DNA of 64,000 nt from Candidatus Heimdallarchaeota archaeon (GCA_030603365.1 JAUVXV010000013.1:68330-132329), one strand, 5' to 3'. Positions 16,680 through 36,208 are shown, counted from the first letter of the stretch. The notes: generated by a model not told the origin, from the sequence alone. Program-made: numbers and translations.

Positions 16680-17663
16680 TCAAAAGAGACTATTTCTTCT
16701 TTTTCTAATAATCAAAACAGCTAAGCCAATAATAGCTAAAATACTTGCAAATAGAAAGAAACTACCTTCTTCAGTTTGTTCTACTTCATATTTCATGGGA
16801 TATTGATCAAAAGAATCAGCAGGTCCATCTATGCTGTATGTTCCTGCACCGTCGTAATCATCCCACCAATTGCCATATTGGTGTAAAGCTTCAAACCATT
16901 GATTACTGCTTCCTTCGTCATACCCTTGACTGGTTATGTCCCCAGTTCTAACTCCATCAATATTGTAAGTGGGCTCATTAGAGTTGTTAACGAAGGTGTT
17001 GTGATAAATAATATTATACATACTGATGTTTCCGACAATGACTAATCCATGTTCATTGCTGTTACGAATGCTGTTGTTGGTAATATCATTATAACTGGAA
17101 TCACGAATATTGATTCCTTGGTAATAACTTAATAGAATATCATTGCCTTTGATAGTGCAATGGTGAGCTTCGTTTAAGTGAATACCTTGCATAAATCCTG
17201 ATATAGTGTTGTTCTCAATCAGAGTATAATTTGAACCAATAGCAATTCCTCCTCCATAAGTGATGCTGCTGGATAAAGTGTTATTGAGTATCTTTGCAGT
17301 TCCAGACAGTACTGTAGACTGAATAAAAATGCCTATATATTTGGTGACAATGTCACAATTTCGAATAATAAAATAAACGTTGGTACCGCTAATCACAATA
17401 GCCGGATTCCCATCACCAGTAGAAACAATATCTAAGTTTTCAATAAGATAGGGGTTAGATGAAGAACCATTACCAGTAAAACCAAGCGTATCAAAGTCAT
17501 CATCTGAATTAATAAAAACAGGAAAAGAAGCATCTAAATCCGCTAATCGACTAGATGAAGACCCAGAGTTTAAAATTGCAGAAGAAGGGTGTATTGTCGA
17601 GCTGTAAACAAGTAAACAGCTGAAAATAATTATGATTAATATCTTTTTATTTAATGATACCAT
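16680..17663 (-). CDS. NosD/CASH parallel beta-helix surface protein
   Basis: GxGSSSNPYLIEN, repeated GIxL...NxIxxN, GNWWDDY; signal peptide and C-terminal TM + basic tail. Confidence 0.88.
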   Translation of the reverse strand: MVSLNKKILIIIIFSCLLVYSSTIHPSSAILNSGSSSSRLADLDASFPVFINSDDDFDTLGFTGNGSSSNPYLIENLDIVSTGDGNPAIVISGTNVYFIIRNCDIVTKYIGIFIQSTVLSGTAKILNNTLSSSITYGGGIAIGSNYTLIENNTISGFMQGIHLNEAHHCTIKGNDILLSYYQGINIRDSSYNDITNNSIRNSNEHGLVIVGNISMYNIIYHNTFVNNSNEPTYNIDGVRTGDITSQGYDEGSSNQWFEALHQYGNWWDDYDGAGTYSIDGPADSFDQYPMKYEVEQTEEGSFFLFASILAIIGLAVLIIRKRRNSLF

Positions 17664-17730
17664 AAATAATTAGAAAATAAAGGTATATATTAAATTTAGC
17701 CAAAAAAAGAAAAGATGAGTCCTAACTCCA

Positions 17731-18168
17731 TCATTCAGTATTGTCTTGTCCAGCTTTCACAGGAATTTCTTCGGGAGTGGTGGCTGGAACTTCTGCTTTG
17801 TCCTCAACAGGGACACTAACAGGAGTGGGACGAACAGAAATGGGTTCAACTCCAAGTTTTTGTAGTGTTTTAGTATACTCATCAGTGAGGAAGAAATCTT
17901 TCAGAACAATCCAACTAGTAGGGATGATAACTGGAAGCTTACCTATACCTTCTGCACAAGAATGAGAAATCTCATCAAGGGATTCTTTTTTATCAACAGT
18001 ACCGCATTTTAGACAAATCTTCCAACGAGCAGATCGTTGATAGAGCTTCTCAACGGTTTCATTATAAATTTCAAAACCTGAACTTAAAGGAGCATCTTGC
18101 AGGTCAAGTGTAAAACGACGGGCTCGAGATTTTATTTGTGTTTTCTCAGCATCTTTGACATCTGGCAT
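17731..18168 (-). CDS. Uncharacterised CxxC...HxC zinc-binding family, copy Z1
   Basis: SARWKICLKCG...HSC...PVIIPTSWIVLKDFFL, shared with four other ORFs; GGAGG SD upstream. Confidence 0.88.
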   Translation of the reverse strand: MPDVKDAEKTQIKSRARRFTLDLQDAPLSSGFEIYNETVEKLYQRSARWKICLKCGTVDKKESLDEISHSCAEGIGKLPVIIPTSWIVLKDFFLTDEYTKTLQKLGVEPISVRPTPVSVPVEDKAEVPATTPEEIPVKAGQDNTE

Positions 18169-18196
18169 TTATTTTCCTCCTTTAAATTTTTATTAT

Positions 18197-18227
18197 ATGT
18201 GATACATACTAATACATATTATATATA
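18197..18227 (-). promoter_or_regulatory. TATA box + ATGT-N13-ACAT palindrome upstream of Z1
   Basis: atgt 18197-18200 and acat 18214-18217; minus-strand TATATATAAT begins at 18227, 10 nt before the motif. Confidence 0.6.
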
Positions 18228-18437
18228 TGTGTATGTGTTGGCAAATCTTGCCTATAAACATATTTTGTAATCATAATAGACACATAAAGCGGAAACTTCT
18301 GCCTCAATCTTTACTTTCAATTCCTATTAATTAAACATCATTAAACATATTTTACCTTACTATTTAGCATTATTTCGTTTTTTTATAATCTGTTCATATG
18401 TCATCATAAAGCGGTAATATATGTAATCATAGTTTTG

Positions 18438-18468
18438 TTTAAATACTATGTCATCATAACTATTACAT
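18438..18468 (+). promoter_or_regulatory. TATA box + ATGT-N13-ACAT palindrome upstream of micropeptide operon 1
   Basis: tttaaata 18438, atgt 18448-18451, acat 18465-18468, then AAGGTG SD. Confidence 0.65.
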
Positions 18469-18495
18469 AGAACAAGAAAACCAAGGTGGAAAAAA

Positions 18496-18699
18496 ATGAA
18501 AATGGAAATACAAAAACTGTTGGACCGTGAGCTAAGGAATCTTTACGCGGATCTAACTCAGCTTACCAAAGCTCTTGCAACCAGATATCCTAGAAAACAT
18601 GATCGAGTGTATATCGATTATCGCATTGAAACCACAACTAGGTTTTCGAAACTCGACTTACGAAAGTATTGCGAAAACAAAGGTGATAGAATTGAATGA
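18496..18699 (+). CDS. Coiled-coil micropeptide A1 (67 aa)
   Basis: SD aaggtgg; EIQKLLDRELRNLYADLTQLTKA aligns with A2 and A3. Confidence 0.75.
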   Translation: MKMEIQKLLDRELRNLYADLTQLTKALATRYPRKHDRVYIDYRIETTTRFSKLDLRKYCENKGDRIE

Positions 18700-18838
18700 A
18701 CAAGAATTACACACACTGTTGGATCAGAAAATAAAAGCACTCCATAGGGAGTTGAATCAGCTCAGAAGAGCTCGTCGCACCAGAAGAGCAAAAGCTCGTT
18801 CTAGGTACTCAATCGGGCAAATACCCCTTCAAGGGTAG
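18692..18838 (+). CDS. Arg-rich coiled-coil micropeptide A2 (48 aa, TTG start)
   Basis: SD aaaggtgat before TTG 18692; MNEQELHTLLDQKIKALHRELNQLRRARRTRRAKARSRYSIGQIPLQG; clear paralogue at 20360. Confidence 0.82.
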   Translation: MNEQELHTLLDQKIKALHRELNQLRRARRTRRAKARSRYSIGQIPLQG

Positions 18839-18878
18839 GCTCGGTTCTTGCTCCTTTTAATAACCCAGGTGATATGAA

Positions 18879-19142
18879 ATGGCTGTAAAAATACAATTAA
18901 AATCCTCTCATGACCTAATTGCTGAACATGTAAAGATACTATATGATTTCGAATTTGTAGATGAAGAAAGTTATTACTTATTCCTTAAACAATTAGTTGA
19001 ATCATTACATGCTTCAGTAGAAGAAGAATCAAAGAAAGCTGCAAAACGTATATATGAGAAAACCATTGAGGCAGAAGTTCGAAATGCTAAGGACAAAATC
19101 ATGGCAAAGAAGCTTCTCCTGTTTGGGTCAATGTACTATTAA
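18879..19142 (+). CDS. Hypothetical protein (87 aa) in micropeptide operon 1
   Basis: SD caggtgat; helical and charged; no motif recognised. Confidence 0.72.
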   Translation: MAVKIQLKSSHDLIAEHVKILYDFEFVDEESYYLFLKQLVESLHASVEEESKKAAKRIYEKTIEAEVRNAKDKIMAKKLLLFGSMYY

Positions 19143-19282
19143 TTTGTATGAGGAATATCCCGTGATAAATCTAGCTCTCTTAAAACCTAATCCCGCTTAT
19201 ACCCTTCCTGGGTATAGCGATTTTTTACGATCACTAAGAAAATTACTAGAATTGAAAACAAAAGAAAATAGAGGTGTCTAAT

Positions 19283-19435
19283 ATGGCAAACAAAGTTGTA
19301 AATATAAGAAGAAAAATGAAATATGAAAAAATGAAAGAGAATGCATGGAAAGTTATGGGATATGCATTTTTATTTACCCTATTAATGGTATTGGGGCTCA
19401 TAACCTTAACTGCTTTATCAAATTTCTTACTTTAG
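19283..19435 (+). CDS. Single-TM micropeptide B1 (50 aa)
   Basis: SD gaggtg; MANKVVNIRRKMKYEKMKENAWKVMGYAFLFTLLMVLGLITLTALSNFLL; 13/47 gapless identities with B3; T-rich tract follows. Confidence 0.8.
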   Translation: MANKVVNIRRKMKYEKMKENAWKVMGYAFLFTLLMVLGLITLTALSNFLL

Positions 19436-19610
19436 AAATTTGACACTTTTTTTAATTTTTATTACATTCAGTTACCGATTTTTAGAAATATATTGTTTCT
19501 ATGTTGAAATTGTGTAGTAATATTTGAACACACATCTATTCAAATCCGCTTCTAATGCTTATTTTGTAGGTGTTCCTAAATCTAAGGTAATTTGTGCCAA
19601 CGGGCAAATG

Positions 19611-19640
19611 TTTATTAACATGTATGAGTTTATTCTACAT
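19611..19640 (+). promoter_or_regulatory. TATA box + ATGT-N13-ACAT palindrome upstream of Z2
   Basis: tttattaa 19611, atgt 19620-19623, acat 19637-19640. An upstream tgccaac is also shared with the Z1 promoter. Confidence 0.6.
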
Positions 19641-19652
19641 GAGTAACGTAAT

Positions 19653-20081
19653 ATGACCGACATGACCAATGCTCGAAAAAAAGCAGTTCGATCTAGAGCA
19701 AGACGTTTTACGCTAGATCTATGGGATGCTCCGCTTGATTCAGGCTTAGAACTTTATCAAACAATAATTGGTGAATTATATGAAGGGTCATCAAGAATTA
19801 GACTTTGTTTAAAATGTGGCGCTATTGATTCTATTCAAGATCTTAAGAAAGATAACCACGCTTGTGCTCTTTCATTTAAGAGTTTTCCAGTTTTAGTAAC
19901 TACAAGTTGGAAACTATTATCTGACTTCTTTCTAACAGGTAGATATGTTGAAGCCTTGCAACATCTTGGTGTTGAATTAGGCGTACGAGAAGTTGTTACT
20001 GTTCCAGTTGAGACAACTCCTGAAGTACTTACTACTATTGAAGAACAAGAAACTGCACGTGTATCTGTGTCAGATAAGTAA
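19653..20081 (+). CDS. Zinc-binding family, copy Z2
   Basis: SRARRFTLDL identical to Z1; CLKCG...HAC...PVLVTTSW..LSDFFL. Confidence 0.88.
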   Translation: MTDMTNARKKAVRSRARRFTLDLWDAPLDSGLELYQTIIGELYEGSSRIRLCLKCGAIDSIQDLKKDNHACALSFKSFPVLVTTSWKLLSDFFLTGRYVEALQHLGVELGVREVVTVPVETTPEVLTTIEEQETARVSVSDK

Positions 20082-20263
20082 GTTTTTTTAACTTTTTCCT
20101 TCAATTTTTTATGTGTTTTTGAGTATAAAATACCCCTTTTTTCTATTTGTTTTCCGACATCTTCGGCCATATTTGCCTCTATTTTCTTATTGATTTACTG
20201 TGGTCGTATGTGCAATACAATGCACTAACGACCCAGAAAGGTTGTTTTTTACACCTAAAAAAG

Positions 20264-20335
20264 ATGTCTGAAGAAATCAGACAATTCTTTCTTCTAAAAA
20301 TGCCTTTATATATGATGTCGGAGTAAGTCAGACAT
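20264..20335 (+). promoter_or_regulatory. Tandem operator TGTC(T/G)GA-N5-TCAGACA flanking the TATA box of micropeptide operon 2
   Basis: Perfect IR tgtctga-agaaa-tcagaca 20265-20283; second copy tgtcgga-gtaag-tcagaca 20316-20334; tttatata at 20305. Confidence 0.75.
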
Positions 20336-20359
20336 AGAAAAACCCAAGGTGTAAAAAAA

Positions 20360-20509
20360 ATGACCAACAACGAACTTTCCAGAACACTGGACCAAGAGAT
20401 CAGGGCGCTCCAAAAGGAGTTAAACGAGCTTAAAAGAGCTCGCAGAGCCCTTCGAGCTAATACACGCTCAGAACGATTGCTAACTCAGCGCATTCCCCTT
20501 GCGGGATGA
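20360..20509 (+). CDS. Arg-rich coiled-coil micropeptide A3 (49 aa)
   Basis: SD aaggtg; MTNNELSRTLDQEIRALQKELNELKRARRALRANTRSERLLTQRIPLAG; paralogue of A2 including the IPLxG C-terminus. Confidence 0.85.
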   Translation: MTNNELSRTLDQEIRALQKELNELKRARRALRANTRSERLLTQRIPLAG

Positions 20510-20556
20510 GCTGGGTCTTCAATCCCTTTCATAAAACTGAAACGGAGGTGTAAAGT

Positions 20557-20709
20557 GTGTTAAGTCTGCCCCGATTTATTTACAGAATTAAGGTTGAAAA
20601 ACCATGTGTCTATCTCTGGAGAATGCTAAGAATTGCATTACCATTGTTTGTAGCAGGTATAGTCGCAGTAATTGGTTTAGCTCCTGAATTTGCTAGAGTA
20701 GTTATATAA
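20557..20709 (+). CDS. Single-TM micropeptide B2 (50 aa, GTG start)
   Basis: SD ggaggtg; MLSLPRFIYRIKVEKPCVYLWRMLRIALPLFVAGIVAVIGLAPEFARVVI; shares the KxE(K/R)-x5-W(K/R) pattern with B1 and B3. Confidence 0.75.
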   Translation: MLSLPRFIYRIKVEKPCVYLWRMLRIALPLFVAGIVAVIGLAPEFARVVI

Positions 20710-20715
20710 AATGAA

Positions 20716-20753
20716 GAAAAGTGTCCCCCACTTTTCCTTTCATTTATTTATTT
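20716..20753 (+). terminator. Hairpin + T-rich tract after B2
   Basis: gaaaagtg-tcccc-cacttttc followed by T-rich sequence. Confidence 0.55.
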
Positions 20754-20755
20754 AC

Positions 20756-20922
20756 GATTATCATCCCATCCAAGAACTCACGCTGTTTGTATCTTGCTGA
20801 ACAGACAAACCTGCAGAGCTCACCATCTGCTTGGGATCAGGAAACAACAAACTCTTACTAACCCAGAGCTTGTGTGCTACCGTCTGTTTCCTGATCCTTT
20901 CCATTTCTTCAGGATGATAATC
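20756..20922. ncRNA. Candidate structured RNA (multi-branch, unknown family)
   Basis: Perfect 11-bp closing IR (20756-20766/20912-20922), perfect 13-bp inner IR (20834-20846/20885-20897), hairpins gtttgt/acaaac and gcaga/tctgc. Confidence 0.5.
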
Positions 20923-20975
20923 AGATTTGAACTCACTAGAGACTTAAAACATGGATCACAAAAGAGGTGTAAAAA

Positions 20976-21119
20976 ATGATTGGTAACGAAAGAAATTTTG
21001 TTCGAAGATTTAAGATAGAAAGAACACTCTCCATTACTTGGAGGTTAATCATCTACATAATTTCTTTGACAGTAATTGTTGTTACAGGGATTTTTTCCCT
21101 ATCTGTAATATCCAATTAA
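20976..21119 (+). CDS. Single-TM micropeptide B3 (47 aa)
   Basis: SD gaggtg; MIGNERNFVRRFKIERTLSITWRLIIYIISLTVIVVTGIFSLSVISN; poly-T tract follows. Confidence 0.8.
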   Translation: MIGNERNFVRRFKIERTLSITWRLIIYIISLTVIVVTGIFSLSVISN

Positions 21120-21226
21120 GAAAATATCATGATGAGAATTAGTCCTTTCATCTTTTTTTTTTTTCTTCTTCTTTATTTCTAGCAAAAGAGAGTGAAAATA
21201 AATTTCGTAGGAAGTTTATTACACTT

Positions 21227-22336
21227 TTATGGTATTAACCATTTTCCTGCCTTATAGATTTCTTTTCCATCCAAATAAATTACTGAATCTTCGCTTTTCA
21301 TATCCTTGAGTATGTCCCAGTGTATTGGTTATTCATTTTTTGAACCAACCTCTGCAAATCCTGAACCTAGTGCTAGGTGTACAGTTCCTCCCATTTTCTC
21401 ATCGAAGAGCATATTCTTTGTAAATTTCTGAATTCCGTAATTTGTTCCAATTGCTACTTCTCCTAGAATATCGGCGTTTTCCATTTCCAGAACTTTTTCC
21501 AATATCTCTTGTCCCTTTGATGCTGTATATTCAACTACCTTACCATCTTTGAACTTTAACCAAATATTTTCAACTTCTTTACCCATATAGATACCTGGAT
21601 AGGTAAAACGGATTGTCCCATTTACTGAGTCTTCGACTGGGGATGTGAATACTTCACCATCTGGTAAATTCTTATCTCCGCAAGCATTAATCCACCCTCT
21701 TCCATCGATGCTTAAAACTAAATCAGTGTCTTCTCCGACGATACGTAACTCCTTACCTTTTCTCAACACTTCTACTATTGCTTCTTGTTCTTTCTTAACA
21801 TTTAACCAATGCTCAACAGGATCTTCTTTATCTAGTGCAAGTGCCTTGTAAACAAATTCTTTGTATTCAAAAGACCCCATATTAGCTTCTTGAGCAAAAG
21901 CAGGTGAAGGATATGGACAGATTACCCAATCTAATTCTCCTGAAGCAGATCTCTCAAAATATATTTTTGTGAGTTCTTTATTTGCTTCTCTTGTCATCAT
22001 TTGTTTGTCTGGACTAATATTGGTAAGTGCTTTTCTGTTAGTGGAGCTAAATACACTGATGAATTTGTCTGCTAGTTTTATCCCCTGTAAAGCAATAGGG
22101 TTTTGATATTTTAGCTGATGCTCTTGCGCATGTGTGTAAAATAACTCATCTTGACCTGGGATAACTATCCTAATGTTTAGTATGTGTCCTCCAGTTTTAA
22201 TAACTTCCAAATCTATCTCGCGAATCAAGTCTGCTGCATCAATTCCACCTGAGAGTAGAACAGTGTTTCCTTTCTCGACTCTCACTGAATAGTTAACAAC
22301 AAGTTTTGCTAGTTTTTCATTAAAATCATCTAACAT
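21227..22336 (-). pseudogene. M29 aminopeptidase (AmpS/AmpT type) with in-frame TAA at 21329-21331
   Basis: NLPDGEVFTSP, LGEVAIG, LFDEKMGGTVHLALG. The frame resumes after the stop as PIHWDILKDM...GKWLIP and ends at 21227. Confidence 0.85.
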
Positions 22337-22499
22337 ATTTTTACCTTCCTACTACATCAAAAAGCTGAACCATTATAAGTTTTGCAGAATCAAGATATAT
22401 TATTGATTTATGTCTTTCAGAAATTTTTATGTTGTTATTACATATGCAAATATACATTAATATGTTACAAATAATAGGTACATAAGAGTGGTGAGACTT

Positions 22500-22970
22500 A
22501 TGCCCAAAATATCGAAAGCTGAACAACAATTTATACGCTCTCTCGCTAAGAAATATGTCATGAAACTTATAGTTTCTCCATTTAACGAGGGGTTGTTAAT
22601 TTATTCTGATACATATGATTCATTATATATTCGATCAGCAAGATGGAAATTCTGTTTAAAATGTGGTGAGATAGAGTCTACTGAAGAAATGTTAGATGAA
22701 CACGAATTAAAGAAAATGGGTGCTTCTGACCGAAAACAAGCACAAGAAAGAGTACATCAGTGTACAATGGGTATAAATCACTTTCCAGTGCTTATAACAA
22801 CTTCTTGGTACAAATTGAAAGACTTCTTTATGACAGACAAATATGTCAAAGCTCTTGAGAATGCAGGAGTTAAGGATATTCCATTTCAGAAGCCTATCTT
22901 TGAGAAGGTACCTATAAAGGTCAAAGCAGAAAAAGCTCGTGAAACAGTTATGCAAGATAGTACTGCTTAA
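22500..22970 (+). CDS. Zinc-binding family, copy Z3
   Basis: SARWKFCLKCG...(insertion)...HQC...FPVLITTSWYKLKDFF. Confidence 0.88.
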   Translation: MPKISKAEQQFIRSLAKKYVMKLIVSPFNEGLLIYSDTYDSLYIRSARWKFCLKCGEIESTEEMLDEHELKKMGASDRKQAQERVHQCTMGINHFPVLITTSWYKLKDFFMTDKYVKALENAGVKDIPFQKPIFEKVPIKVKAEKARETVMQDSTA

Positions 22971-23064
22971 CCACTTACTCTTTTTATATGGTGATAACAT
23001 CTCGCATAATATTTATAACTTGGTTTGCTCTAGAGAATCTAGTGGATAAAAAGAGAATACCCTA

Positions 23065-23439
23065 ATGCCTGATATTTCAAATAAAGAAAAAGAAGAAATC
23101 AGAATATTAGCTAAATGTTTTAGTGGTATTCTTTCTAAAGTTACTTTTAGGAGTGGTTCTCAGATATATTATCTTACATTCAAAAGATTGTACAAGAGAT
23201 CTGCTAGATGGAAGTATTGTCTGATTTGTGGGCTGGTAGGTTTACCAGAAGATTTCCGTAAAGAGAAACACAGATGTCCTTCAATGGTTTTTCACAATGT
23301 TCAGGTTTTGGTTTCAACTTCTTGGTTTAAATTGAAAGACTTCTTCTTAAATTCTGAATACAAAGAAGTATTAGAGGAAGTTGGGATAAATCAGAAAAAC
23401 CACATGAAAATAGATTCAAGTAATGGTTCCAAAACCTGA
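23065..23439 (+). CDS. Zinc-binding family, copy Z4
   Basis: SARWKYCLICG...HRC...VLVSTSWFKLKDFFL. Confidence 0.85.
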   Translation: MPDISNKEKEEIRILAKCFSGILSKVTFRSGSQIYYLTFKRLYKRSARWKYCLICGLVGLPEDFRKEKHRCPSMVFHNVQVLVSTSWFKLKDFFLNSEYKEVLEEVGINQKNHMKIDSSNGSKT

Positions 23440-23468
23440 TTCTTCTCTTAAGTCGCTAAAACAAAGCA

Positions 23469-23624
23469 TTTTAAAATAATACAGAGAAACTAACTCAAAG
23501 TTGAGGAAGATTAGATAATAGATAAATGCAATTTTGTTCAACAGTTTAAGAAAACTACTAATGCTAAAAATTATGAAATTGATATTATAAGACTTAGCTA
23601 TGAAAAAGAAAACAACTGATAACT
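23469..23624 (+). promoter_or_regulatory. Promoter and ~125 nt leader of DEAD-box gene 1
   Basis: ttttaaaa 23469; agttgaggaagattaga 23499-23515 is identical to 39218-39234. Confidence 0.7.
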
Positions 23625-24902
23625 ATGAAATTTAACGATTATAACATTCAAGGTGAAATTAAAAGAGCTTTGGATGAAATGGGGATACATACCCCAACAG
23701 ATATTCAAGAAAAAGCGATACCAGAAATTCTAAAGGGCGAAGATACACATATTTTGGCACAAGCTAAAACTGGAACAGGAAAAACTTTAGCTTTCGCAAT
23801 ACCTATAGTAGAATTTCTCGATCCAACACTAAGAAAAGTTCAAGCGGTTATTCTAGTTCCAACTAGAGAATTATGCAAGCAAGTATACAATGTTATTTCC
23901 AAACTGGGAAAACACAGAAGACTCAAAGCTGTGGAAGTATACGGTGGAGTTTCGATAAATAGACAAATTGAAAAAATCAAATCTGGAGCACAAATCGTAG
24001 TAGCGACACCTGGAAGATTAATAGACCTATACCATCGAAATGCTATTTCATTTGGAGCAGTGCAATTTGCAGTTCTTGATGAAGCAGATAGGATGCTTGA
24101 TATGGGGTTCCTGCCTGATGTAGATTTTATTTTATTTGATGCCATGAAAAATGTTTATCCAAGATTACTTCTTTTTTCAGCAACAATGCTTCCTGAAGTG
24201 AAAAATATCATGATGGACTATAGTTTGGATGACAAAATAGTAGAAATAGACGTTAGTAGAGATGATCTGACTGTTTCTTCTTGTAAACAATATTATTATG
24301 AAATCAAAGATACCAAGCAGAAATACAATTCATTCATTAGGCTTCTACAAAGAGAAAAACCTTCATCATGTATCGTTTTTGTGAATACTAAACGATGGGC
24401 AGATAATCTTAAGAAAAGATTGTTCAAAGATAAGAGAATCAATTTGAGGGTCGGACTTCTACAGGGAGATATGTCTCAAAGACAGCGCGAGATAGCGATG
24501 AGCGATTTTAGGAAGAAAAAAATAACATGTCTAATTGCTACAGATGTCGCTGCAAGAGGATTAGACATTCCTCATGTTTCTCATATTTTCAATTATGATT
24601 TACCTGTAGGTAACGCAGAAAACTATGTTCATCGAATAGGTAGAACATCAAGAATGGAAAGAGCTGGAATAGCAATATCTCTAGTTGACCAAGAAGAAAT
24701 GAACATGATTAGACGTATTGAAATGTTCATGAAGAAAGATATTCAAAGATTCTATTTGACTAGAGAAGAGAGAGAGCAAGATAGAAAAAAACGTCGTGGA
24801 TATCCTAGAGTGACAGAATCCAAGCAACCCAAGAAAAAACCAGCAAGCTTAGACGATGAAGAGTTTCCTGAAACTTTTGCAGATACATCAATATATGGCT
24901 AA
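23625..24902 (+). CDS. DEAD-box RNA helicase (DeaD/CsdA-like), copy 1
   Basis: AKTGTGKT, PTREL, TPGR, DEAD, SAT, ARGLD, HRIGRTSR. Confidence 0.95.
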   Translation: MKFNDYNIQGEIKRALDEMGIHTPTDIQEKAIPEILKGEDTHILAQAKTGTGKTLAFAIPIVEFLDPTLRKVQAVILVPTRELCKQVYNVISKLGKHRRLKAVEVYGGVSINRQIEKIKSGAQIVVATPGRLIDLYHRNAISFGAVQFAVLDEADRMLDMGFLPDVDFILFDAMKNVYPRLLLFSATMLPEVKNIMMDYSLDDKIVEIDVSRDDLTVSSCKQYYYEIKDTKQKYNSFIRLLQREKPSSCIVFVNTKRWADNLKKRLFKDKRINLRVGLLQGDMSQRQREIAMSDFRKKKITCLIATDVAARGLDIPHVSHIFNYDLPVGNAENYVHRIGRTSRMERAGIAISLVDQEEMNMIRRIEMFMKKDIQRFYLTREEREQDRKKRRGYPRVTESKQPKKKPASLDDEEFPETFADTSIYG

Positions 24903-35660: not shown

Positions 35661-36104
35661 ATGCCAGATATTCTTTCTTCTGAAAAATCGGAAATTAGAG
35701 CCATAGCTCAAAAATATGCTCAATCGCTATGGACAATTCCATTTGATAAAGGGATTGTTGCATATGTTAAAACGAACAATAAATTATTCATTCATCCTGC
35801 TCGGTGGAGATTTTGTTTTAAATGTGGGATGATACTGAAAACAAGTCTCAGTAAAAAAGTAGATACTGAGGATGAAACAAAGGATCACTCATGCATTTTG
35901 GAGTTTGAAGAGGTTCCATTATTGATTAAGACTTCATGGTTTCAATTGAGAAAATTTTTCTTAATAGAACAAACACATAAAAAAATCTTACAGGAAATTG
36001 GGCTATCAGAACTTCCTAAACCAGTCATTATTACTAAACTACATGATAAGCAAGAAATAGCTGAAACAGAGACCCCAGAAACTGTTGCTGAAGAATCTTT
36101 GTGA
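35661..36104 (+). CDS. Zinc-binding family, copy Z5
   Basis: MPDI start like Z1 and Z4; PARWRFCFKCG...HSC...PLLIKTSWFQLRKFFL. Confidence 0.85.
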   Translation: MPDILSSEKSEIRAIAQKYAQSLWTIPFDKGIVAYVKTNNKLFIHPARWRFCFKCGMILKTSLSKKVDTEDETKDHSCILEFEEVPLLIKTSWFQLRKFFLIEQTHKKILQEIGLSELPKPVIITKLHDKQEIAETETPETVAEESL

Positions 36105-36153
36105 TTACTATTAATTCTTAGTCACCTTTACTTAGTTCTACACAATACTTATA

Positions 36154-36194
36154 TGTAGCAATATTGTAACATAATATGTGACAAATATGTTACA
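36154..36194 (+). promoter_or_regulatory. Array of four TGTnnCA boxes at 11-12 bp spacing
   Basis: tgtagca 36154, tgtaaca 36165, tgtgaca 36177, tgttaca 36188. Confidence 0.55.
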
Positions 36195-36208
36195 TGTAGG
36201 CTGAGTAG

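What the first reader, a model, noticed from the sequence alone, without database searches (positions are those of the whole stretch)
17731..23439. Candidate new system: zinc-protein + coiled-coil micropeptide + TM micropeptide cassettes under a shared operator
Seen: two related cassettes. Cassette 1 is Z1 divergent from an operon A1-A2-orf87-B1. Cassette 2 is Z2 followed by A3-B2, a structured RNA candidate and B3. Z3 and Z4 lie 1.4 kb further on. Every micropeptide has an AGGTG/GAGGTG SD, the two operon leaders are homologous (acatagaa...ccaaggtg...aaaaaatg), and four promoters share TATA + ATGT-N13-ACAT. Four of the six micropeptides are absent from the ORF track and one has the wrong start. 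I recognise none of the three families. Inference: this is a duplicated, diversifying regulator/effector module, for example a Zn-finger regulator controlling a nucleic-acid-binding peptide and a membrane peptide. It could be toxin-antitoxin-like, developmental/dormancy-related or a domesticated viral module. The function is unknown.
Basis: partly seen in the sequence, partly recalled or inferred. Interest (0 to 1): 0.88.

Follow-up and report, generated by a model that had tools for sequence, protein, structure and literature searches.

The report
Heimdallarchaeal zinc-protein and microprotein gene module
A gene cluster found only in one small group of Heimdall (Asgard) archaea combines an unknown family of zinc proteins, three families of tiny proteins, a folded RNA and shared palindromic control sites; none of the parts resembles anything characterised, and its function is still unknown.

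Summary
The window encodes five paralogous CLxCG...HxC proteins (Z). It also encodes coiled-coil, Arg-rich 48-49 aa microproteins (A, with a divergent partner A1t), an 87 aa helical protein, three single-TM 47-50 aa peptides (B) and a conserved structured RNA.

- **Conservation.** The gene order is kept in at least 17 species of one genus, the one holding Heimdallarchaeota AB_125. It is duplicated on a second contig of this genome.
- **Selection.** All small ORFs stay open with fixed lengths. Median dN/dS is 0.15-0.54.
- **Operators.** 21-bp ATGT-N13-ACAT palindromes abut the TATA boxes of the Z genes and A operons. They are about 100-fold enriched, keep their position in orthologues, and also sit beside Z genes in genomes with no detectable A.
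- **Distribution.** Z occurs in 24 of 24 genomes of two sister genera and in none of 276 other Asgard genomes sampled.
- **No known relatives.** Pfam, PHROGs, PADLOC, PDB, BFVD, the ESM Atlas and Rfam gave no significant match.

Best reading (about 0.45): Z is a new family of dimeric operator-binding repressors that autoregulate and control the A/B cassettes, and the RNA is a leader of B genes. Toxin-antitoxin-like and viral readings are not supported so far. Earlier notes of this scan cover this same stretch only.

The parts
17731..18168 (-). Z1, 145 aa CLKCG...HSC protein, divergent from the cassette-1 operon
18197..18217 (.). Operator at the Z1 promoter (ATGT-N13-ACAT). On the minus strand it directly follows TATATATAAT and precedes a GGAGG SD.
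18265..18285 (.). Near-exact palindrome (1 mismatch) in the Z1/A1 intergenic region. It is one of several ATGTMATCATA repeats here (18399, 18423, 18448).
18448..18468 (.). Proximal operator of the cassette-1 operon, directly 3' of TTTAAATACT
18496..18699 (+). A1 (A1t type), 67 aa divergent coiled-coil paralogue of A. Its stop overlaps the start of A2.
18692..18838 (+). A2, 48 aa, TTG start. Coiled coil plus RARRxRRAKARS, ending in Gly.
18879..19142 (+). orf87, 87 aa predicted three-helix protein. It is the most constrained part (median dN/dS 0.15).
19283..19435 (+). B1, 50 aa: basic N-terminus plus one TM segment
19620..19640 (.). Operator at the Z2 promoter (ATGTATGA...CTACAT), directly 3' of TTTATTAAC and 12 nt before the ATG
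19653..20081 (+). Z2, 142 aa. AF2 model has core 1-110 at about pLDDT 90 and a disordered acidic tail.
20264..20284 (.). Distal operator of the cassette-2 operon (ATGTCTGA-N5-TCAGACAa). It has counterparts 50-75 bp upstream of the proximal site in orthologues.
20315..20335 (.). Proximal operator of the cassette-2 operon (ATGTCGGA...CAGACAT), directly 3' of TTTATATA
20360..20509 (+). A3, 49 aa
20557..20709 (+). B2, 50 aa, GTG start, single TM
20717..20753 (.). Terminator-like hairpin AAAAGTG-TCCCC-CACTTTT followed by T-runs. It is conserved after B2-type genes, including the copy on C11.
20758..20929 (+). Conserved structured RNA element (covariance-model core 20776-20901). The strand is provisional.
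20976..21119 (+). B3, 47 aa, single TM
22500..22970 (+). Z3, 156 aa from ATG 22500. An ATGT-N14-ACAT variant lies just upstream at 22463-22484.
23065..23439 (+). Z4, 124 aa
35661..36104 (+). Z5, a more distant paralogue outside the stated span. It is followed by a NosD-like beta-helix surface protein gene whose promoter carries two ATGT-N12-ACAT palindromes.

Best explanation
This is a vertically inherited, lineage-specific regulatory module made of uncharacterised parts.

**Z proteins (inferred).** Z proteins are Zn-binding C2HC proteins that act as dimeric repressors. They bind 21-bp ATGT-N13-ACAT palindromes placed between the TATA box and the transcription start. By the established logic of archaeal repressors such as MDR1, LrpA and Phr, a protein bound there lets TBP/TFB bind but blocks RNA polymerase recruitment.

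**Circuit (inferred).** Each Z gene carries such a site, which implies autoregulation. Each A operon carries a proximal site plus a distal site, which implies cooperative repression. The inner bases differ between promoter classes, so paralogous Z proteins probably read different operators:
- ATGTCGGA..TCCGACAT at A operons;
- ATGTAKGA..TACAT at Z genes;
- ATGTGWC at other Z loci.

**Products when derepressed (inferred).**
- The cassettes make an A1t/A coiled-coil pair. The genes are adjacent, and in this genome they overlap, so translation is probably coupled.
- The basic tail of A probably contacts nucleic acid.
- orf87 is made.
- B peptides insert into the membrane with the N-terminus inside.

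**RNA element (inferred).** The conserved structured RNA lies immediately upstream of B1/B3-type genes and is most likely their 5' leader.

**Shown versus inferred.** Shown: conservation, linkage, selection, operator placement and enrichment, and RNA conservation with compensatory pairs. Inferred: zinc and DNA binding by Z, repression, the A1t/A pairing, the role of the RNA, and the physiological output.
For: - **Synteny.** The order Z<>A1t-A-o87-(B1)-Z-A-B2-RNA-B3-Z-Z is kept in 17 species, and there is a paralogous Z-A1t-A-B2-RNA copy on C11.
- **Purifying selection.** Median dN/dS is Z 0.31, A 0.44, A1t 0.26, o87 0.15, B 0.54. All 25 A proteins are 48-49 aa and end in Gly.
- **Operators.**
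  - The window has 6 matches against 2 expected, 4 of them in 2.1 kb.
  - Seven of the 82 genome-wide matches lie in the two cassette loci.
  - Matches are present in 17 of 20 orthologous loci, at the same positions directly 3' of TATA. The ends are conserved and the centres vary. A operons have proximal plus distal pairs.
- **Z rather than A.** TATA-abutting palindromes of the same design flank Z genes in loci without A or B (L021, L025, L026). Two of these are from G010 and G011, where A was not detected anywhere in the genome.
- **Z fold.** Four invariant Zn-type ligands in 62 sequences, a confident AF2 core beginning with an N-terminal helical hairpin whose first helix is Lys/Arg-rich, and a mildly basic core with an acidic tail in Z1, Z2 and Z5.
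- **RNA.**
  - z-score -5.7.
  - Invariant sequence blocks across two clades.
  - Four pairs with compensatory changes, 97.5% of cells paired against 35-50% when the partners are slid.
  - P3 hairpin kept by different sequences.
  - Found in 12 of 25 genomes of the genus, 11 of which are among the 12 with detectable B genes. Weaker copies lie directly upstream of B1 genes.
Against: - No DNA-binding domain is recognisable in Z. Pfam gives nothing, and the best fold match has Z = 5.0.
- Apart from R48, no basic residue is invariant in Z.
- The outer half-sites are 17 bp apart centre to centre, which is unusual for a simple dimer on one DNA face.
- Many Z genes are solo and lack an exact palindrome nearby, including all loci examined in the sister genus.
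- In some species cassette 1 uses a different repeated motif, TTACTGCA. The ATGT/ACAT code is therefore not universal.
- A is far more basic than Z (pI 11.5 against 5.2-9.5) and could itself be the DNA binder.
- The RNA copy on C11 has no B gene downstream.
Confidence: 0.45

Rival explanations
1. A (with A1t) is the operator-binding regulator. It would be a coiled-coil dimer with a C-terminal basic region, a bZIP turned round, that autoregulates its own operon. Z would have another role, for example zinc-dependent protein-protein or RNA binding linked to envelope or secreted proteins.
For: - A has an N-terminal heptad-like helix followed by the near-invariant KRARRxxRAKA, with pI 11.5-11.7.
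- The best palindromes, with 8-bp arms, sit at A-operon promoters.
- Z genes often neighbour secreted or beta-helix protein genes.
Against: - Operators of the same design occur at Z genes in loci and genomes without detectable A.
- Arms 13-17 bp apart do not fit a bZIP-like fork.
- Operators also stand in front of Z genes that are not in an A operon.
Confidence: 0.15
2. The module is toxin-antitoxin-like. B peptides are membrane-damaging toxins of the type I kind. Their synthesis is held down by the structured RNA, acting either as a translationally inert 5' leader or as an antisense RNA convergent on B2, and/or by A. Z provides the transcriptional control.
For: - B peptides are 47-50 aa with one TM segment and a basic N-terminus.
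- A long, highly structured conserved RNA lies directly next to B genes and co-occurs with them across genomes.
- The hairpin after B2 could terminate transcripts from both directions.
- In one clade the minus-strand folds are more stable.
Against: - There is no similarity to any known toxin, defence or TA family.
- The locus is core and syntenic across a genus rather than patchy or mobile.
- G-U pairs in the basal stem favour the sense strand.
- B peptides carry a conserved 20-aa cytosolic segment, and in some species a 150-aa relative carries an extracellular repeat domain. This looks more like an anchor than a pore former.
Confidence: 0.15
3. It is a domesticated remnant of a virus or mobile element. 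Small zinc proteins, basic microproteins and TM peptides are typical of archaeal virus genomes.
For: - All the families are orphans. The genes are short and densely packed with strong promoters.
- The family is confined to two genera.
Against: - There is no match in IMG/VR, INPHARED phages, PHROGs or BFVD.
- No integrase, capsid or replication gene is present.
- GC content is the same as in the flanks.
- The locus keeps the same chromosomal neighbourhood (MFS transporter, DEAD-box helicase, beta-helix genes) in several species.
Confidence: 0.05

Closest known systems
C(P)XCG zinc-finger small proteins of haloarchaea (Haloferax volcanii micro-proteins; PMC11241148)
   Same: They are archaeal, lineage-expanded, small, and carry a CxxCG knuckle. 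Z has an invariant CLxCG.
   Different: The haloarchaeal proteins are under 70 aa with two or more C(P)XCG motifs. Z is 124-156 aa with one CLxCG plus HxC, an N-terminal helical hairpin and a disordered tail. There is no detectable sequence or fold relationship.
Archaeal repressors whose operators lie just downstream of the TATA box (MDR1, LrpA, Phr; my own knowledge of the literature)
   Same: A palindromic operator sits between TATA and the start site, the regulator gene is autoregulated, and the regulator is divergent from its target operon.
   Different: Those regulators have HTH or wHTH domains. Z has no recognisable DNA-binding domain, and its binding is untested.
Type I toxin-antitoxin loci (hok/sok, tisB/istR, txpA/ratA; PMC6563280, PMC2887945)
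   Same: A hydrophobic peptide of about 50 aa lies next to a conserved, highly structured RNA.
   Different: No homology was found. The locus here is core and syntenic, the strand and ends of the RNA are unknown, and protein partners (Z, A, A1t, o87) are present. Toxicity is untested.
Arginine-rich-motif peptides (lambda N, HIV Rev) and bZIP proteins (my own knowledge)
   Same: A short helix rich in Arg lies next to an oligomerisation helix.
   Different: In A the basic region follows the zipper, the opposite order to bZIP. There is no Pfam match beyond generic coiled coils, and the nucleic-acid target is unknown.

Membership tests
C(P)XCG zinc-finger micro-proteins | [quoted passage not shown] | tested here: not met
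   Z is 124-156 aa with one CLxCG and one HxC. The definition is taken from the abstract of PMC11241148.
Any Pfam, PHROG or PADLOC family (Z, A, A1t, o87; of the B peptides only B1 and B3 were scanned) | Score at or above the curated or significant threshold | tested here: not met
   No family reached its threshold. Only sub-threshold coiled-coil matches appeared.
DUF1192 (PF06698), the name one source gives to one A homologue | Pfam gathering score | tested here: not met
   Six of 25 A proteins match, with best E = 0.0015. None was seen to reach a gathering score. The name appears for P0211.
bZIP | Basic region N-terminal to the leucine zipper, with a bZIP_1 or bZIP_2 profile match | tested here: not met
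   In A the basic region is C-terminal to the helix with heptad leucines. There is no bZIP profile hit.
Type I toxin-antitoxin | Small hydrophobic single-TM peptide | tested here: met
   B1-B3 are 47-50 aa with GRAVY 0.5-1.2 and one hydrophobic stretch.
Type I toxin-antitoxin | Antisense RNA overlapping or pairing with the toxin mRNA | tested here: inconclusive
   A structured RNA is adjacent to B genes, but its strand is unresolved. Fold energies differ by clade, and G-U pairs favour the sense strand. No RNA-seq data were available.
Type I toxin-antitoxin | Toxicity of the peptide and rescue by the RNA | not testable with these tools
   This needs expression experiments.
TATA-proximal archaeal repressor/operator circuit (a mechanism, not a protein family) | Palindromic site between TATA and the start site, conserved in orthologues and enriched over chance | tested here: met
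TATA-proximal archaeal repressor/operator circuit (a mechanism, not a protein family) | Regulator shown or predicted to bind DNA | not testable with these tools
   No DNA-binding domain was found in Z. An EMSA or footprint is needed.
Rfam RNA families | Covariance-model score at the gathering threshold | tested here: not met
   There was no relevant match at E <= 1 in 17000-24000.
Helicase-associated (HA) domain, PF03457 | Profile similarity over the domain | tested here: inconclusive
   The Z profile weakly hits a 7-repeat HA protein (E = 7e-5). hhalign gives 65.6% probability over only 24 columns, the last helix plus LGV.

The most novel reading that the evidence does not exclude
The module is a complete, self-contained control circuit built only from undescribed parts:
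- a new zinc-protein transcription-factor family with a paralogue-specific operator code;
- a natural 'reversed bZIP' or arginine-rich microprotein pair (A1t/A) that binds the conserved leader RNA;
- membrane peptides whose translation that RNA gates.

In effect it would be an archaeal counterpart of type I toxin or membrane-peptide systems, which have not been characterised in Asgard archaea.
Probability: 0.15. Interest if true: 0.8.

Novelty: categorically new. Interest (0 to 1): 0.6.

Why it matters
Heimdallarchaeia are the archaea closest to eukaryotes, and most of their lineage-specific genes are uncharacterised. This locus offers several things that can be tested directly.

- **A candidate new DNA-binding fold.** It comes with its operators already identified, so it can be tested with a few oligonucleotides and a recombinant protein.
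- **Three conserved microprotein families.** Automated annotation easily misses proteins of this size.
- **A new structured RNA.**

The limits are a narrow distribution (two genera), the absence of any cultured host, and no known phenotype. I call it categorically new because no component matches a known family or fold. The function itself is not demonstrated.

Tried and rejected
- **Z with A complex prediction**: no verdict (score 0.00). This is not evidence either way.
- **Public sequencing runs**: no RNA holder was listed. Only DNA runs, mostly labelled cold seep or sediment, hold parts of the stretch, and I did not lay them. There is therefore no expression, strand or TSS data.
- **orf87 structure**: three helices, but pLDDT 66 and pTM 0.34, so I did not use it for a fold search.
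- **Fold searches with the Z model**: Foldseek against PDB, best E = 1.3. VIA-align wide, best Z = 5.0 to a de novo design. ESM Atlas, TM <= 0.34. BFVD, best E = 0.2. None is informative.
- **PDB sequence profile search**: nothing significant.
- **Protein-atlas feature search**: best score 0.78 (Gmx_para_CXXCG/Imm11 clusters), which is at the noise level. Rejected as evidence.
- **HA-domain lead**: a local 24-column similarity only.
- **Viral and phage searches**: blank.
- **Beta-helix genes as a general Z regulon**: only 2 of 61 beta-helix loci carry an ATGT-N12-14-ACAT site upstream. Rejected as a general link.
it is present in the window but not conserved in the C11 copy or in the second clade.
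- **Conserved ORF inside the RNA element**: the 47-aa minus-strand ORF at 20761-20904 is not kept in the C11 copy, where a 34-aa frame differs after the shared nucleotides.
- **Literature searches**: no paper on these families was found.

Full report
**What is there**

The window is G000:C7:68330-132329, from a Heimdallarchaeon with about 33% GC. Between 17731 and 23439 it encodes:
- four paralogous proteins of 124-156 aa (Z1-Z4, 37-46% identical) with an invariant CLxCG...HxC and TSWxxLxDFF;
- three coiled-coil microproteins: A1, 67 aa; A2, 48 aa from TTG 18692; A3, 49 aa;
- an 87-aa protein, orf87;
- three single-TM peptides of 47-50 aa, B1-B3.

Each small ORF has an AGGTG-type SD at the right distance, and the two operon leaders are alike. 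Z3 most likely starts at ATG 22500, which fits the MPxIS N-termini and the 156-aa database relatives. A fifth Z lies at 35661-36104, and a weak sixth-type relative lies on C16.

**Is it more than chance?**

A third cassette on another contig of the same genome has the same order: Z, A1t, A, B2-type (C11:65516-66772).

In six-frame searches of 83 genomes of the class, A was found in 19 of 24 other species of the same genus. Apart from a distant A-like paralogue in one genome of the sister genus, it was found in no other genus. B was found in 11 of 24 species of the genus. One o87 homologue is from Heimdallarchaeota archaeon AB_125.

I fetched 20 loci and annotated them with HMMs. Seventeen species keep the order Z(-)<>A1t-A-o87-(B1)-Z-A-B2-B3-Z-Z, with every small frame open.

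Median pairwise dN/dS is 0.31 (Z), 0.44 (A), 0.26 (A1t), 0.15 (o87) and 0.54 (B). All 25 A proteins are 48-49 aa and end in Gly after a Pro or aromatic residue. The ORFs are therefore real genes, and their linkage is conserved.

**Distribution and relatives**

- The Z profile finds 132 clusters at 90% identity in the word-indexed search. Every one that carries a name is a Heimdallarchaeota hypothetical protein.
- An exhaustive profile search of 1.84 billion representatives gives only 24 hits. Apart from a weak match to a protein of HA-domain repeats, they are short proteins of 57-156 aa like Z itself. hhalign gives that match 65.6% probability over 24 columns.
- In 301 Asgard genomes, Z is in 22 of 22 and 2 of 2 genomes of two sister genera and in 0 of 276 others.
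- Pfam, PHROGs and PADLOC give nothing at threshold for any part.
- AF2 gives a confident Z core: residues 1-110 at about pLDDT 90. The order is two N-terminal helices, a zinc-knuckle hairpin, a strand and two short helices, followed by a disordered tail.
- No convincing fold match was found in PDB, BFVD or the ESM Atlas.
- No viral or phage relatives were found.

**Operators**

ATGT-N13-ACAT occurs 6 times in the window against 1.98 expected. Four of these lie at 18197, 18448, 19620 and 20315. Genome-wide there are 82 in 3.65 Mb, 7 of them in the two cassette loci. The TATA-plus-palindrome pattern occurs only 4 times (one site is listed twice), and 3 of those are in the cassettes.

In 17 of 20 orthologous loci the motif recurs at the same positions, directly 3' of the TATA box and 11-37 nt before the start codon. 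The ends are conserved and the centres vary. The classes are:
- **A operons:** ATGTCGGA-N5-TCCGACAT-like, with a second and often perfect copy 50-75 bp upstream. In the window this distal copy is at 20264-20284, with one mismatch.
- **Z genes:** ATGTAKGA...TACAT.

Given the usual archaeal TATA-to-start distance, the palindrome fills the -1 to -21 interval. That is where a bound protein blocks polymerase recruitment (established for MDR1 and LrpA; my own knowledge).

The same design (ATGTGWC...GWCACAT, next to a TATA-like box) occurs beside Z genes in loci that lack A and B. Two of these loci are from genomes (G010, G011) in which A was not detected at all. This favours Z over A as the binding protein.

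There are caveats. The sister-genus Z loci have no exact palindrome. In one clade, cassette 1 uses a different repeated motif, TTACTGCA.

**The RNA**

The stretch 20740-20950 folds far better than shuffled sequence, with z = -5.7. It matches no Rfam family.

It is conserved, with invariant blocks CGCUGNUUGUNUCUUGCUGAA, GGAUCAGG/CCUGAU and GUGUGC, across two clades. A second copy at 85% identity follows the B2-type gene on C11.

On a 10-sequence alignment:
- 97.5% of cells pair, against 35-50% when the partners are slid;
- four pairs show compensatory changes;
- the basal stem has G-U pairs in up to 4 sequences, which would be A-C mismatches on the other strand;
- a further hairpin (P3) is kept by different sequences: GCAGA/UCUGC, GCAGAC/GUCUGC, GACAAA/UUUGUC.

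There are only two clades, so the number of independent events is small.

A covariance model finds the element in 12 of 25 genomes of the genus. Eleven of these are among the 12 genomes in which B was detected. Weaker copies lie directly upstream of B1-type genes. I therefore read it as a leader of B1/B3-type genes. Two points count against this reading: the C11 copy has no B gene downstream, and fold energies alone do not settle the strand.

**How it probably works**

See the best explanation. Z would be an autoregulating, operator-binding repressor family controlling the cassettes that make A1t/A, o87 and the B membrane peptides, and the RNA would be a B leader. My confidence is about 0.45. 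The rivals are A as the DNA binder (0.15), a type I-TA-like reading (0.15) and a domesticated viral module (0.05). The remainder goes to something not yet imagined.

**Context**

The flanks are ordinary chromosomal genes: glutaredoxin, NosD-like beta-helix surface proteins, an M29 aminopeptidase, a DEAD-box helicase and an MFS transporter. Relatives share parts of this neighbourhood. Z genes elsewhere tend to sit next to genes for secreted or beta-helix proteins. However, the genome has about 61 beta-helix loci and only two carry an operator-like site, so I do not claim a general link.

**Unexplained**

- The invariant C-terminal Gly of A.
- The wide 13-17 bp half-site spacing.
- The role of orf87, the most constrained part.

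Noticed in passing
window 21329-22336 (-): An M29 aminopeptidase gene sits between B3 and Z3 in this genome only. In G017, G013 and other relatives Z3 follows B3 after about 280-480 nt with no gene between.
   Followed up: partly
G000:C14:310719-311486 (-): A distant A-like 46-aa protein (MVLDMNQEETLKNLDQEIRRLKDEMNQLEKARRVV...) heads a separate operon with two acidic coiled-coil proteins of 81 and 128 aa. Hits of similar score and coverage occur in most genomes of the genus and in one of the sister genus.
   Followed up: partly
L007:1545-1990 (+) and L006:2204-2660 (+): In one clade a gene of about 150 aa lies between o87 and B1. It has a B2-like basic segment and TM at its N-terminus, followed by an extracellular part with repeated ...D(I/V)YVVR motifs. 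It is a long relative of the B peptides.
   Followed up: no
window 36153-36195: Two ATGT-N12-ACAT palindromes and an 8-bp inverted repeat (TGTAACAT...ATGTTACA) lie in the promoter of the beta-helix gene downstream of Z5.
   Followed up: partly
whole genome G000: About 61 loci encode NosD-like right-handed beta-helix proteins. The three read in the window have a signal peptide and a C-terminal TM anchor. This is a very large surface-protein family.
   Followed up: no
L007:440-775, L006:940-1275, L013:955-1265: In these species the Z1/A1t intergenic region carries 5-6 copies of ATTACTGCA, including a TATA-abutting TTACTGCA-N3-TGCTGTAA palindrome, in place of ATGT-N13-ACAT. The operator appears to have been replaced within the same cassette.
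   Followed up: no
G000:C16:99624-99929 (+): A very divergent Z-like ORF (CLRCGE...HLC...RTSFLRIEKVL), E = 1.5e-5 to the Z profile.
   Followed up: no
G000:C12:128624-128644: ATGTATGAGAAATTTCTACAT closely resembles the Z2 operator. It lies inside the 5' end of another beta-helix gene. It may be chance.
   Followed up: no
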